From a virus (taxonomy: Duplodnaviria > Heunggongvirae > Uroviricota > Caudoviricetes): a stretch of 40,848 nucleotides of DNA. Made by a program: the position numbers and the translations under genes. The stretch is taken from the IMG/VR virus record IMGVR_UViG_2778261067_000009; one strand, given 5' to 3'. The first letter of the stretch is position 1, and each line of letters starts with the position of its first letter. Shown one piece after another: positions 37,707 to 38,249 of the stretch. The notes below the pieces were generated by a model that was not told where the DNA came from, searched no databases, and worked only from the letters and a program-made list of their open reading frames with translations.

Positions 37707-38249
37707 ATGAAATCGCACCTGATGAACAAAAAAAACATGGCGAAAAGCTGCCGTGTAAGTGCGACAGCGTTCGACAAGTGGGGAGTGACTCCCGTTGAAC
37801 GTAAAGGCCGTGAGGCGTTTTACGATGTTGCCAGCGTGATAGACAATAGGGTTAACAATGCAATTAGCCAGCTTACAAACGACAAAGGCGATATTGATGA
37901 TGATGAACTCTTACGAGTCAGGATCAGATTACTGACAGCACAGGCGGAGGCGCAGGAACTTAAAAACGAGCGCGATCGCGGTGACGTGATTGATACTGAG
38001 TTTTGCCTGTACGCGCTTTCAAAGCTGGCGAGTCAGATTTCATCAATCATGGACAGCCTCCCGCTTACTATGCAAAGGAGCTTCCCACAGATTACCCACG
38101 CCATGCTGGATAGGCTTAAAAGGGAAGTGGTTAAAGCCTGTAATGCCAGTGCCAGAGTTGCCGACAACCTCCCACAGATACTGGCTGATTACTTGAAAGA
38201 AACAACCGGAAACGTACCGGAAAAGTTGCTACAGAAGAAAGGCGAGTAA
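37707..38249 (+). CDS. Island-encoded terminase small subunit, lambda Nu1 homologue
   Basis: 180 aa; C-terminal ...DTEFCLYALSKLASQISSIMDSLPLTMQRSFPQIT...LPQILADYL... parallels the prophage Nu1 ...DTGFCIFALSKLAMALSSTLDSIPLSMQRQFPDLT...LPDLLDEYI...; N-terminal HTH region diverged. Confidence 0.8.
   Translation: MKSHLMNKKNMAKSCRVSATAFDKWGVTPVERKGREAFYDVASVIDNRVNNAISQLTNDKGDIDDDELLRVRIRLLTAQAEAQELKNERDRGDVIDTEFCLYALSKLASQISSIMDSLPLTMQRSFPQITHAMLDRLKREVVKACNASARVADNLPQILADYLKETTGNVPEKLLQKKGE

What the first reader, a model, noticed from the sequence alone, without database searches (positions are those of the whole stretch)
37707..38249. Island small terminase keeps the Nu1 C-terminal region but has a diverged DNA-binding N-terminus
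The island Nu1 homologue aligns with the prophage Nu1 mainly over the C-terminal half (FCxxALSKLA...LDSxPLxMQRxFP...LPxLLxEY), the part that in lambda Nu1 contacts gpA. The N-terminal winged-HTH region is much more diverged, and the island's own cosB (cos1) differs from the prophage cosB. This fits a SaPI-like strategy of supplying an alternative TerS that recruits the helper TerL to satellite DNA.
Basis: partly seen in the sequence, partly recalled or inferred. Interest (0 to 1): 0.65.

Follow-up and report, generated by a model that had tools for sequence, protein, structure and literature searches.

The report
Phage satellite's own small terminase
A 10.9-kb phage-parasitic island next to phoQ carries its own lambda-type small terminase, whose DNA-binding end matches a site in the island's own packaging signal and whose other end resembles helper-phage terminases; this is an already catalogued but never tested way for such islands to get packaged.

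Summary
The 180-aa ORF at 37707-38249 is a Nu1-family small terminase (TerS). It aligns with the neighbouring prophage's Nu1 only over residues 61-167 (49% identity, E 1e-33); the N-termini are unrelated (3/45 identical).

The N-terminus is not a decayed copy of the prophage's. It is a conserved DNA-binding domain of the N15/D3 class (56% identity to N15 gp1).

The island is a PICI satellite at the same roxA|phoQ site as EcCICFT073. It has the same gene order, but the cosB1-rppA-cosB2 stretch between two inverted cos sites is replaced by a terS stretch. Its TerS is 179/180 identical to that of the published EcCIIHE3034.

Across seven satellites from at least three genera:
- The DNA-binding domain and a cosB motif (GGTGGTGGTG..TTGTTGTT, at N15's R3 position) stay constant.
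- The C-terminal half and cosN vary. One satellite has a lambda-class C-terminal half.

All segments are under purifying selection. This supports a SaPI-like own-TerS strategy. However, the block most conserved with the prophage is the central oligomerisation region; the TerL-binding tail is only 40% identical. Compatibility with this prophage is therefore unproven, and an Rpp-like need for the helper's TerS is not excluded. It is a new member of a known kind and moderately interesting.

The parts
28374..28448 (+). Left attachment repeat (attL) of the island; the integrase gene follows at 28449-29699
   Evidence: 75-nt direct repeat with 39232-39306, 76% identical, core CGGTGTAGTTAATGGTGTAGTyAATT. 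The same repeat flanks EcCICFT073.
35672..37500 (+). Island morphogenesis genes upstream of the packaging module: E-like major capsid protein (35672-36727), D-like decoration protein (36739-37074), and a 137-aa protein (37087-37500)
   Evidence: Pfam PF03864 (E 9.6e-50) and PF02924 (E 1.3e-17). The 137-aa protein matches phrog_1999 and, weakly, the C-terminal end of the head protease/scaffold family phrog_53 (E 1.7e-10). The order is the same as c1499/c1500/... in EcCICFT073.
37502..37528 (+). GC-rich hairpin followed by a T run (terminator-like), between the 137-aa gene and cos1
   Evidence: One of three copies of GCCGGAGaAATCCGGCTTTTTT (34866, 35230, 37502). The sequence is read.
37531..37602 (+). 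cos1: cosQ, cosN (GGGCGGCGACCT at 37562-37573) and the conserved CGCTATTTATGA stretch
   Evidence: Exact cosN match. It is a 72-nt inverted repeat with cos2. It aligns with the prophage, EcCICFT073 and other satellite cos sites.
37605..37631 (+). Candidate TerS binding site of cos1 (R3-like): GGGGGGTGGTGGTGGTTTTGTTGTTTG, about bp 44-70 from the cosN nick
   Evidence: Conserved in all 7 satellites that carry the N15-like DNA-binding domain, including ones with a different cosN and a different TerS C-terminus. It overlaps the interval where N15's R3 was mapped (bp 48-60, GAGGTTGTTGTTT; PMC9026076). It is absent from the prophage cos and replaced by CACCACCACCAC in the Rpp-type EcCICFT073.
37662..37682 (+). 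Second conserved cosB element, CAAACAATACACCAACCTGAA: a possible inverted R2-like site
   Evidence: CAATACACC(A/C)AC(C/T)TG is kept at about bp 105-120 in the window, IHE3034, Ch1, Kosakonia and Superficieibacter satellites. Its reverse complement resembles the R3-like motif. This is an inference, not tested.
37707..38249 (+). Island small terminase (TerS, Nu1 family), 180 aa. Residues about 1-55 form a winged helix-turn-helix DNA-binding domain of N15 class; 56-127 are the helical linker and oligomerisation core; 128-167 are the tail homologous to lambda Nu1's TerL-binding region; 168-180 are a satellite-specific extension, GNVPEKLLQKKGE
   Evidence: It is 179/180 identical to the EcCIIHE3034 TerS. 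AF2 secondary structure gives beta-alpha-alpha-beta-beta-alpha in residues 5-54, then long helices (low confidence).
38270..38395 (-). cosB of cos2: phage-type R3-I1-R2-R1 arrangement with CATGTCGG / GAAACGACA / CATGTCGTTTC sites
   Evidence: The reverse complement aligns with the cos region of phage PhiR5_1 (82.9% over 150 nt) and with CFT073 prophage 4. This is a different class from the co-resident prophage's CATGTCCGGTT sites.
38400..38471 (-). cos2: inverted copy of cosQ-cosN (cosN at 38429-38440)
   Evidence: cos2 is absent from the related satellites L013, L014 and L005, so it is an optional extra.
38505..38786 (+). Conserved 93-aa ORF that closes the module; function unknown
   Evidence: phrog_1561, E 2.7e-58. 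It is present after rppA in EcCICFT073 and after terS in IHE3034, E2 and Ch1.
39232..39306 (+). Right attachment repeat (attR); phoQ follows at 39388-40848 (-)
866..1020 (+). Prophage cosN (866-877) and cosB with three CATGTCCGGTT-type R sites (about 912-927, 972-986, 1002-1016)
   Evidence: It is nearly identical to the cos of phage PhiR12_2.
1061..1570 (+). Prophage Nu1 (169 aa, GTG start), the comparison partner. It is identical to the Nu1 of the plaque-forming phage PhiR12_2
   Evidence: Pfam Nu1 matches only residues 49-150. Its N-terminus belongs to a separate family, phrog_7289.
1542..3470 (+). Prophage large terminase gpA (TerL), the presumed partner. Its first about 30 residues are class-specific
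   Evidence: Homology between the PhiR5_1 and window late regions starts only at about window 1632, which is gpA codon about 31.

Best explanation
The gene encodes the packaging-specificity subunit of a cos-type phage-inducible chromosomal island (PICI). The island spans about 28374-39306, is 10.9 kb long, and is an EcCICFT073/EcCIIHE3034-type element.

Proposed mechanism:
1. A lambdoid helper is induced and the island excises and replicates. (Inferred from the family, not shown here.)
2. The island's TerS binds, through its N15-class winged helix-turn-helix domain, to the satellite-specific cosB of cos1: the GGTGGTGGTGG-TTTTGTTGTT element about 45-70 bp right of cosN, perhaps together with an inverted partner about 55 bp further on. 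(Inferred from co-variation and from N15's mapped R3.)
3. Its C-terminal half holds the oligomerisation core and the tail homologous to Nu1's gpA-binding region. This half brings in the helper's large terminase, which nicks the phage-like cosN and packages island concatemers into helper-made heads. (Inferred.)

The protein is modular. The DNA-binding domain and cosB are the constant, satellite-owned pair. The C-terminal half and cosN are exchangeable and come in classes that parallel helper terminase classes.

In sister islands the same slot holds rpp, a truncated TerS-like protein that must borrow the helper's TerS. This island carries the full-length alternative.

The second, inverted cos2 carries a phage-type (21/PhiR5_1-class) cosB. 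It could let helpers of that class package the island with their own TerS.
For: Identity and context:
- Nu1 family membership.
- Full-length alignment with lambda Nu1 (35%, E 2e-34) and N15 gp1 (46%, E 5e-54).
- The gene lies 134 bp (37574-37706) downstream of an exact cosN, in lambda's cos-Nu1 arrangement.
- The island shares site, order and about 92% DNA identity with EcCICFT073 up to 37603. Homology then stops until 38394. This is the cosB1-terS/rppA-cosB2 stretch between inverted cos arms.

Cognate domain/cosB pair:
- Seven satellites carry this DNA-binding domain: four distinct E. coli alleles (window/IHE3034, E2, Ch1), one Enterobacteriaceae helper-embedded satellite, and satellites in Kosakonia and Superficieibacter.
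- All seven keep the GGTGGTGG..TTGTTGTT element at the same distance from cosN. This holds although cosN itself differs in two of them and flanking DNA has diverged.
- An E. coli element (L015) whose TerS has the island-type C-terminus but a lambda/21-type DNA-binding domain has CATGTCGG R sites instead.
- N15's experimentally mapped R3 (bp 48-60; PMC9026076) reads GAGGTTGTTGTTT.

The gene is functional:
- dN/dS is 0.11-0.26 in all three segments against alleles with dS up to 1.06.
- The tail DNA is present in 793 of 5426 complete E. coli genomes and never overlaps a TerL gene.

The C-terminus is exchangeable:
- Among 94 full-length homologues, residues 1-40 are the least variable and 121-180 the most.
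- dS is 0.13-0.17 in the DNA-binding domain against 0.8-1.1 in the tail, which indicates a mosaic gene.
- The Superficieibacter satellite combines the same DNA-binding domain with a lambda-class C-terminal half (core 83%, tail 62% identical to lambda Nu1).

Phage side:
- TerS tails and the first about 30-50 residues of TerL fall into matching classes.
- cosB, Nu1 and the gpA N-terminus are swapped together as a unit between PhiR5_1 and this prophage.

Precedent: SaPI TerS redirects the helper's TerL (reviewed in PMC6739421).
Against: - No binding or transfer data exist for this protein. EcCIIHE3034, which carries the same TerS, was barely transferred after induction of its resident prophages (fewer than 1 to 40 transductants/ml; PMC6092414).
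- The tail (128-167) is only 40% identical to the co-resident prophage's tail and 45% to the best phage (PhiR5_1). That is not much above the 30% shared by lambda and a 21-type TerS, whose subunits are not interchangeable (PMC9026076).
- In two helper-embedded satellites (Ch1 and F404), where the helper is known and has a lambda-type Nu1, the satellite's tail is only 38% identical to the helper's.
- The segment best conserved with phage TerS proteins is the oligomerisation core. That would equally allow mixed oligomers with the helper's TerS.
- The structure model is of low confidence (pLDDT 64.5, pTM 0.28), and fold matches are not significant.
Confidence: 0.55

Rival explanations
1. Rpp-like hybrid. 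The island TerS does not bind TerL productively by itself. Through its conserved central core it co-assembles with the helper's TerS. The mixed oligomer is steered to cos1 by the island's DNA-binding domain, while the helper TerS tails bring in TerL. Phage packaging is poisoned at the same time.
For: - The region most conserved with every phage TerS class is residues 93-127 (40-66% identity). It lies in lambda Nu1's oligomerisation domain, while the tails are poorly matched even to known helpers (38%).
- The gene occupies exactly the slot of rppA, whose product works only as a complex with the helper's TerS (PMC6739421).
- Lambda terminase protomers contain a TerS dimer (PMC9026076), so mixed dimers are conceivable.
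Against: - Unlike Rpp (139-154 aa, no C-terminal TerL domain), this protein keeps a full-length tail under purifying selection (dN/dS 0.21-0.26).
- The tail comes in discrete alleles, and one satellite has a clearly lambda-class tail. This is hard to explain if the tail had no partner.
- There is no sequence similarity to RppA (BLASTP E 1.3, hhalign probability 0.15%).
- Rpp binds the helper's TerS through its DNA-binding domain, not through a shared core.
Confidence: 0.22
2. The TerS is functional and works SaPI-like, but the co-resident PhiR12-type prophage is not its helper. The matching helpers are other lambdoid phages, of PhiR5_1 class or a class not yet sampled. The similarity to the neighbouring prophage's Nu1 is only family resemblance.
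For: - The best phage match of the C-terminal half is PhiR5_1 (58%), against 48.5% for the PhiR12 type.
- cos2's cosB is also of PhiR5_1/21 class, not PhiR12 class.
- The identical TerS in IHE3034 was not mobilised by that strain's prophages (PMC6092414).
- No E. coli phage or prophage carries a DNA-similar tail.
Against: - The window allele's last 25 tail residues are closer to the PhiR12 type (11/25) than to lambda (7/25). The allele found embedded in lambda-Nu1-type prophages shows the reverse (11/25 to lambda, 7/25 to PhiR12). This was hand-counted from the alignment, and the sample is small.
- The PhiR12-type and PhiR5_1 TerL proteins differ essentially only in the first about 30 residues, where they are 64% identical over the first 50.
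Confidence: 0.15
3. The gene serves mainly as an interference device, or is a decaying remnant. In the first case it titrates the helper's TerL or TerS to block phage packaging without promoting island packaging. In the second it is left over from a phage-derived module.
For: - PICI late regions usually carry interference genes (PMC6739421).
- Truncated and fused variants exist in databases, for example P0086, a fusion of TerS residues 1-130 with the 93-aa ORF.
Against: - The cognate cosB motif is conserved next to a functional-looking cosN in at least three genera, which argues for DNA recognition in cis.
- The whole ORF is under purifying selection, and it is intact in 791 genomes at 80% coverage or more.
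- A pure decoy would not need a conserved DNA-binding domain.
Confidence: 0.06

Closest known systems
EcCIIHE3034, a Gram-negative PICI of E. coli IHE3034 (Fillol-Salom et al. 2018, PMC6092414)
   Same: The TerS is 179/180 identical. The late module is the same: capsid, decoration, 137-aa gene, cos1, terS, inverted cos2, 93-aa gene, at 94.6% DNA identity over 35264-38798. The paper describes this island as one that 'encodes TerS'.
   Different: It is integrated at a different site (cspD|clpS rather than roxA|phoQ), and the integrase is only about 79% identical. The paper reports almost no transfer and does not analyse the TerS, its domains or its cos.
EcCICFT073 and its RppA (Fillol-Salom et al. 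2019, PMC6739421; Murialdo & Feiss 2022, PMC9026076)
   Same: Same chromosomal site (roxA|phoQ), same gene order and about 82-92% DNA identity outside the packaging stretch. Both have two inverted cos sites flanking the specificity gene, and a cos1 with phage-like cosQ/cosN but a non-phage cosB. Both proteins start with a TerS-type winged helix-turn-helix domain (RppA residues 7-47 match phrog_57).
   Different: RppA is 144 aa, lacks the C-terminal half, shows no detectable similarity to this protein, and needs the helper's TerS. This protein is a complete 180-aa Nu1 homologue. The cosB motifs differ: CACCACCACCAC in CFT073, GGTGGTGGTGG..TTGTTGTT here.
Phage N15 gp1 (TerS) and its single-R3 cosB
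   Same: It is the closest phage TerS overall (46%) and in the DNA-binding domain (56%; the stretch AFDKWGV.PVE..GRE is nearly identical). N15's R3 (bp 48-60, GAGGTTGTTGTTT) resembles the island's element and occupies the same position (PMC9026076).
   Different: N15's C-terminal half is lambda-class (tail 28% identical to the island's). Its gene is followed by TerL, and its cosN differs (GGGCGGCGTCCG). The island's motif carries an extra (GGT)4 run.
Lambda Nu1 / gpA terminase and the lambda-21 specificity modules
   Same: Three-domain TerS layout: DNA-binding domain, oligomerisation core, TerL-binding tail. The position behind cosQ-cosN-cosB is the same, and so is the modular exchange of cosB + TerS + TerL N-terminus (PMC9026076).
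   Different: No TerL gene follows. There is a 13-aa C-terminal extension. The DNA-binding domain is only 27% and the tail only 28% identical to lambda's.
SaPI-encoded TerS of pac-type staphylococcal islands
   Same: Same logic: the satellite supplies its own small terminase, which recognises satellite DNA and uses the helper's large terminase (as summarised in PMC6739421).
   Different: It is an unrelated protein family with headful (pac) rather than cos packaging. SaPIs add a separate inhibitor (Ppi) of the phage TerS, and no counterpart was identified here.

Membership tests
Lambda Nu1-type small terminase (Pfam PF07471 / phrog_57) | Sequence match above the curated family threshold | tested here: met
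   PF07471: 84 bits against a cutoff of 30. phrog_57: E 1.7e-52 over residues 1-174.
Lambda Nu1-type small terminase (Pfam PF07471 / phrog_57) | [quoted passage not shown] | tested here: inconclusive
   Homology to the N15 gp1 and lambda Nu1 N-termini. AF2 topology is beta-alpha-alpha-beta-beta-alpha in residues 5-54. However, pLDDT is 63-73, the only Foldseek hits are non-significant MerR-like matches (E >= 0.13), and phmmer found nothing in the PDB.
Lambda Nu1-type small terminase (Pfam PF07471 / phrog_57) | Gene placed directly downstream of cosQ-cosN-cosB | tested here: met
   cosN at 37562-37573, start codon at 37707.
Lambda Nu1-type small terminase (Pfam PF07471 / phrog_57) | C-terminal region that binds the large terminase | not testable with these tools
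   The homologous region is present and under purifying selection. Binding to any TerL has not been assayed.
Lambda Nu1-type small terminase (Pfam PF07471 / phrog_57) | Followed by, and overlapping, its own large-terminase gene | tested here: not met
   No TerL in the island. None of 793 E. coli genomes shows a TerL under the tail match. This is what marks it as a satellite copy.
Gram-negative PICI (EcCICFT073 type) | Integrase, AlpA-type regulator, primase/helicase replication module, mostly one transcription direction, about 10-20 kb, flanked by att repeats, no tail or lysis genes | tested here: met
   RefSeq annotation of a 99.2%-identical copy: integrase, HTH regulator, Icd-like protein, DUF4222, RepA helicase, SSB, PerC, capsid, decoration, TerS. 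att repeats lie 10,858 bp apart. The island is co-linear with EcCICFT073.
Gram-negative PICI (EcCICFT073 type) | Helper-phage-dependent induction, packaging and high-frequency transfer | not testable with these tools
   This needs experiments. The closest published relative with this TerS transferred poorly (PMC6092414).
Rpp (redirecting phage packaging) proteins | 139-154 aa; TerS-like DNA-binding domain but no C-terminal TerL-binding domain; sequence related to RppA/B/C | tested here: not met
   180 aa with a full Nu1 C-terminal half. BLASTP against RppA gives E 1.3 and hhalign probability 0.15%.
Capsid-forming PICI (cf-PICI) | Own TerL, portal, protease and head-tail connectors in addition to capsid and TerS | tested here: not met
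   Only capsid, decoration, a 137-aa protein and TerS are present.
SaPI-type satellite TerS | Homology to staphylococcal pac-type small terminases | tested here: not met
   At E <= 0.01 the only significant Pfam match is Nu1. The one other hit, ASD2 (E 0.0041, 17.2 bits), is below its cutoff of 26.4, and no pac-type small-terminase family appears. The resemblance is in strategy only.

The most novel reading that the evidence does not exclude
The stretch between the two inverted cos sites is a swappable 'packaging-specificity cassette' of enterobacterial cos satellites.
- One constant half, the N15-class DNA-binding domain plus its GGTGGTGG..TTGTTGTT cosB, marks satellite DNA.
- The other half, the TerS C-terminal core plus tail (together with cosN), is exchanged by recombination to match the helper's terminase class. 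A satellite's helper range could then be read from its tail allele. Examples are ADNLPQILADY with PhiR12/PhiR5_1-class TerL and LDENIPxMLSDY with lambda-class TerL.
- Rpp would be the truncated derivative of such a TerS.
- The extra inverted phage-type cos2 would add a second helper class.

By rough counts (793 genomes against 110 for rppA/B, with RppC not counted), the full-length TerS form would be several times commoner in E. coli than the one mechanism studied so far.
Probability: 0.3. Interest if true: 0.55.

Novelty: new member of a known kind. Interest (0 to 1): 0.38.

Why it matters
PICIs move virulence and defence genes between enterobacteria. The only packaging mechanism worked out for Gram-negative cos PICIs is Rpp, which borrows the helper's TerS.

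In complete E. coli genomes the full-length TerS version found here is several times commoner: tail DNA is in 793 of 5426 genomes, against 110 for rppA/B. It includes O157:H7 and O26 lineages. Yet no experiment on it turned up in the library I could search.

If the model holds, three things follow:
- Satellite DNA recognition becomes predictable from a short cosB motif.
- Helper range becomes predictable from the TerS tail.
- The system offers a natural set of TerS chimeras for mapping how lambda-type TerS and TerL recognise each other.

The finding is not a new kind of system. The strategy is the SaPI one, and the gene is already annotated and published as a PICI TerS.

Tried and rejected
- Sequence search of the PDB with the island TerS found nothing relevant (best E 0.066, an ankyrin design). 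There is therefore no direct link to the solved Nu1 DNA-binding domain or the RppC structures.
- The AF2 model built from a 27-sequence alignment has low confidence (pLDDT 64.5, pTM 0.28). Foldseek against the PDB gave only non-significant MerR/SoxR/BmrR/RacA-type winged-helix hits. I use only the secondary-structure order, and cautiously.
- Looking for a relationship to RppA by BLASTP and hhalign found none.
- Looking for a phage or prophage carrying the island-type tail found none. In the phage collection the best match is 58% (PhiR5_1). In E. coli genomes no tail match overlaps a TerL gene.
- The promoter/terminator scan of 37000-38900 found nothing above chance. The two 'terminators' are the cosN palindromes.
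- The inverted repeat just upstream of the start codon (AATACACCAAC...GTTGGTGTATT) was considered as a regulatory hairpin. Its right arm is not conserved in L013/L014, so only the left arm is treated as a possible R2-like site.
- The genome-contig scan returned only 4 loci, too few for statistics on helper/tail co-variation. Helpers of non-embedded satellites cannot be identified with these tools.
- Rejected: that the island is a cf-PICI (no TerL, portal or protease). Also rejected: that the N-terminus is a degraded copy of the prophage's (it is the most conserved part of the family).
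Full report
**1. What is in the window**

- Bases 1 to about 23,500 are the late region of a lambdoid prophage: cosN at 866-877, Nu1 at 1061-1570, gpA at 1542-3470, then head and tail genes. This region is about 94% identical to the plaque-forming PhiR12 phages, and its Nu1 is identical to PhiR12_2's.
- Next come potB, potA, pepT and roxA.
- A 10.9-kb island follows, bounded by 75-nt direct repeats at 28374-28448 and 39232-39306. phoQ lies after it.
- A 99.2%-identical copy of the island in RefSeq is annotated with integrase, HTH regulator, Icd-like protein, DUF4222, RepA-family helicase, SSB, PerC, major capsid protein, head decoration protein, a hypothetical protein, 'terminase small subunit' and a last hypothetical protein. 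This is the architecture of a Gram-negative phage-inducible chromosomal island (PICI).

**2. The observation**

The ORF at 37707-38249 encodes 180 aa and belongs to the Nu1 family (Pfam 84 bits against a cutoff of 30; phrog_57 E 1.7e-52).

Against the prophage Nu1, BLASTP finds one alignment: residues 61-167, 49% identity, E 1e-33. Nothing aligns in the first 60 residues.

| Segment (island residues) | Identity to prophage Nu1 |
|---|---|
| 1-55, DNA-binding domain | 7% (3/45) |
| 56-92, linker/coiled coil | 35% |
| 93-127, core | 63% |
| 128-167, tail | 40% |

Both elements carry the exact lambda cosN and near-identical cosQ/I2 sequence. They diverge right after ...CGCTATTTATGA. The prophage has three CATGTCCGGTT-type R sites, and the island has GGGGGGTGGTGGTGGTTTTGTTGTTTG.

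**3. What the N-terminus really is**

It is not a worn-down version of the prophage's N-terminus.

- The island protein aligns over its full length with lambda Nu1 (35%) and with N15 gp1 (46%).
- Its first 61 residues find N15 (54%) and Pseudomonas D3-like phages (59%). They find no other E. coli lambdoid phage.
- Among 94 full-length homologues from the protein database, residues 1-40 are the least variable and residues 121-180 the most variable.
- The prophage's own N-terminus is the unusual one. Pfam's Nu1 model matches it only from residue 49, and its first 90 residues fall in a separate PHROG family.

**4. Relation to published islands**

EcCICFT073, the model Gram-negative PICI, sits at the same roxA|phoQ site with the same gene order. 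DNA identity to the window's island is about 92% up to 37603, just past cosN. It then disappears until 38394 and resumes.

The non-homologous stretch lies between two inverted 72-nt cosQ-cosN arms (37531-37602 and 38400-38471). In CFT073 this stretch holds cosB1, rppA and cosB2. Here it holds cosB1, terS and cosB2.

RppA (144 aa) shows no detectable similarity to the island TerS, although its residues 7-47 match the same TerS family profile. Rpp proteins lack the TerL-binding C-terminus and work only in complex with the helper's TerS (PMC6739421, PMC9026076).

The island's TerS is 179/180 identical to the TerS of EcCIIHE3034. That PICI was described in 2018 as 'encoding TerS', but it was hardly transferred by its resident prophages and was not studied further (PMC6092414). 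TerS is also a core marker of PICIs in SatelliteFinder (PMC10085698). The gene and the general idea are therefore already on record.

**5. Evidence that the DNA-binding domain and cos1's cosB form a cognate pair**

Seven satellites carry this class of DNA-binding domain and have no TerL gene downstream:
- the window's island and EcCIIHE3034;
- E. coli E2;
- E. coli Ch1;
- an Enterobacteriaceae satellite embedded in a prophage capsid gene;
- satellites in Kosakonia and Superficieibacter.

All of them keep (G)GTGGTGGTG(G)T(T)TTGTTGTT at about bp 45-70 from the cosN nick. Most also keep CAATACACC(A/C)AC(C/T)TG about 55 bp further on. This holds although the surrounding DNA has diverged and although cosN itself differs in Kosakonia (GGGCGGCAGACT) and Superficieibacter (GGGCGTCGACCT).

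The reverse case also exists. An E. coli element (L015) has a TerS with the island-type C-terminal half, including the GNVPEKL extension, but a lambda/21-type DNA-binding domain. Its cosB carries CATGTCGG R sites.

N15's R3 was mapped by scanning mutagenesis to bp 48-60 (PMC9026076). That interval reads GAGGTTGTTGTTT, which resembles the island's element and lies at the same place.

**6. Evidence on the C-terminal half**

- dN/dS against two diverged E. coli alleles is 0.14-0.18 (DNA-binding domain), 0.11-0.19 (middle) and 0.21-0.26 (tail), so the whole protein is constrained.
- dS is 0.13-0.17 in the DNA-binding domain but 0.8-1.1 in the tail. The gene is therefore a mosaic of parts with different histories.
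- E. coli alleles fall into two main tail types...ASARVADNLPQILADYLKETT (the window's) and ...ACTKLDENIPRMLSDYLMETT.
- The Superficieibacter satellite joins the same DNA-binding domain to a lambda-class C-terminal half (core 83%, tail 62% identical to lambda Nu1).
- On the phage side, TerS tails and the first 30-50 residues of TerL form matching classes. PhiR5_1 and this prophage share about 93% identical late genes only from gpA codon about 31 onwards, so cosB, Nu1 and the gpA N-terminus travel together as a unit.

All of this fits a constant satellite-owned recognition half joined to an exchangeable helper-facing half.

**7.

- The segment best conserved with the prophage (93-127) lies in what Murialdo and Feiss call the central oligomerisation domain. 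The last 30-40 residues are the part biochemically tied to gpA binding (PMC9026076), and they are only 40% identical to the prophage's. Lambda and a 21-type TerS share 30% there and are not interchangeable.
- The best phage match of the C-terminal half is PhiR5_1 (58%), not the PhiR12 type (48.5%).
- Two helper-embedded copies (Ch1 and F404) sit inside the portal gene of prophages with lambda-identical Nu1 tails. Their satellite tails are only 38% identical to the helper's.
- There is a weak reciprocal pattern over the last 25 residues before the extension, hand-counted from the alignment. The window allele matches PhiR12 at 11/25 and lambda at 7/25; the Ch1 allele matches lambda at 11/25 and PhiR12 at 7/25. 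Two cases are not a test.

Direct TerL capture is therefore the most economical reading (I give it 0.55). A requirement for the helper's TerS through mixed oligomers (0.22), or a helper other than the neighbouring prophage (0.15), remain open.

**8. cos2**

The inverted cos2 (cosN at 38429-38440) carries a phage-type cosB. Read on the minus strand, it has R3, R2 and R1 sites of the CATGTCGG/GAAACGACA type. It aligns with the cos of PhiR5_1 (82.9% over 150 nt) and with that of CFT073 prophage 4.

In EcCICFT073, cos2 instead carries CATGTCCGGTT sites, almost identical to the cosB of PhiR12_2 and of the window's prophage. Each island thus pairs a satellite-specific cos1 with a phage-type cos2 of some helper class. 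In the window, that class is not the class of the co-resident prophage. cos2 is absent from several related satellites, so cos1 plus terS is the core module.

**9. Verdict**

The element is a recombinant member of a known family. It combines the EcCICFT073 backbone and site with the EcCIIHE3034-type packaging stretch. It carries a gene already annotated and published as a PICI TerS.

What appears not to have been described in the literature I could search:
- the N15-class identity of the DNA-binding domain;
- the conserved cosB element;
- the exchangeable C-terminal half;
- the fact that this form outnumbers rppA/B about seven to one in complete E. coli genomes (793 against 110 of 5426; RppC-type not counted).

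Noticed in passing
window 38250-38480 (minus strand); L003 16095-16345: The island's inverted cos2 has a complete phage-type cosB (R3-I1-R2-R1) of the 21/PhiR5_1 class. EcCICFT073's cos2 has a PhiR12-class cosB that matches the window's prophage. The 2019 paper stated that no phage cosB could be identified in EcCICFT073, but its cos2 matches the PhiR12_2 cos almost base for base.
   Followed up: partly
window 37605-37631 versus L003 about 15606-15625: At the R3 position, the TerS-type islands have GGTGGTGGTGG. The Rpp-type EcCICFT073 has CACCACCACCAC, essentially the reverse complement at the same distance from cosN. This could be an inverted binding site or a coincidence of triplet repeats.
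   Followed up: no
window 37087-37500: The 137-aa protein between the decoration gene and cos1 has no Pfam match but hits phrog_1999. It also hits, weakly (E 1.7e-10), positions 495-567 of the 583-position head protease/scaffold profile phrog_53, which suggests a Nu3-like scaffold fragment. In other satellites the gene in this slot is a 127-aa AlpA/HTH-like protein instead.
   Followed up: partly
L015 (NZ_CP054662.1 1822698-1827904): This E. coli element has a chimeric TerS (lambda/21-type DNA-binding domain plus island-type C-terminus, 200 aa) and a convergent DUF1441 (Gifsy-type TerS-like) gene. It also has at least three cos-like sites with different cosN sequences. It looks like a satellite that stacks several packaging modules.
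   Followed up: partly
L016 (E. coli Ch1) 10225-22723; L017 (E. coli F404) 4591-17092; L005-L008: Satellites with this TerS family are found inserted inside late genes of lambdoid prophages: the portal gene in Ch1 and F404, and the capsid gene E in L005-L008. This is the 'helper-embedded PICI' configuration. In these cases the helper is known.
   Followed up: partly
window 1061-1640 versus PhiR5_1 (PV340545.1): PhiR5_1 and the window's prophage share about 93% identical late genes, but only from gpA codon about 31 onwards. cosB, Nu1 and the first about 30 residues of gpA are exchanged as one unit. This neatly delimits the TerS-specificity determinant of TerL.
   Followed up: partly
window 34866-34892, 35230-35256, 37502-37528: There are three copies of a GC-rich hairpin with a T run (GCCGGAGaAATCCGGCTTTTTT) after successive island late genes. 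They look like repeated intrinsic terminators or a small repeat family.
   Followed up: no
protein P0086 (232 aa, from the homologue search): This is a natural fusion of TerS residues 1-130 to the downstream 93-aa ORF. It implies a deletion that removed the TerS tail and cos2 in some E. coli islands.
   Followed up: no
window 1-327: A TonB-family/lipoprotein-like ORF precedes the prophage cos. The same arrangement occurs upstream of the terminase genes of CFT073 prophage 4.
   Followed up: no
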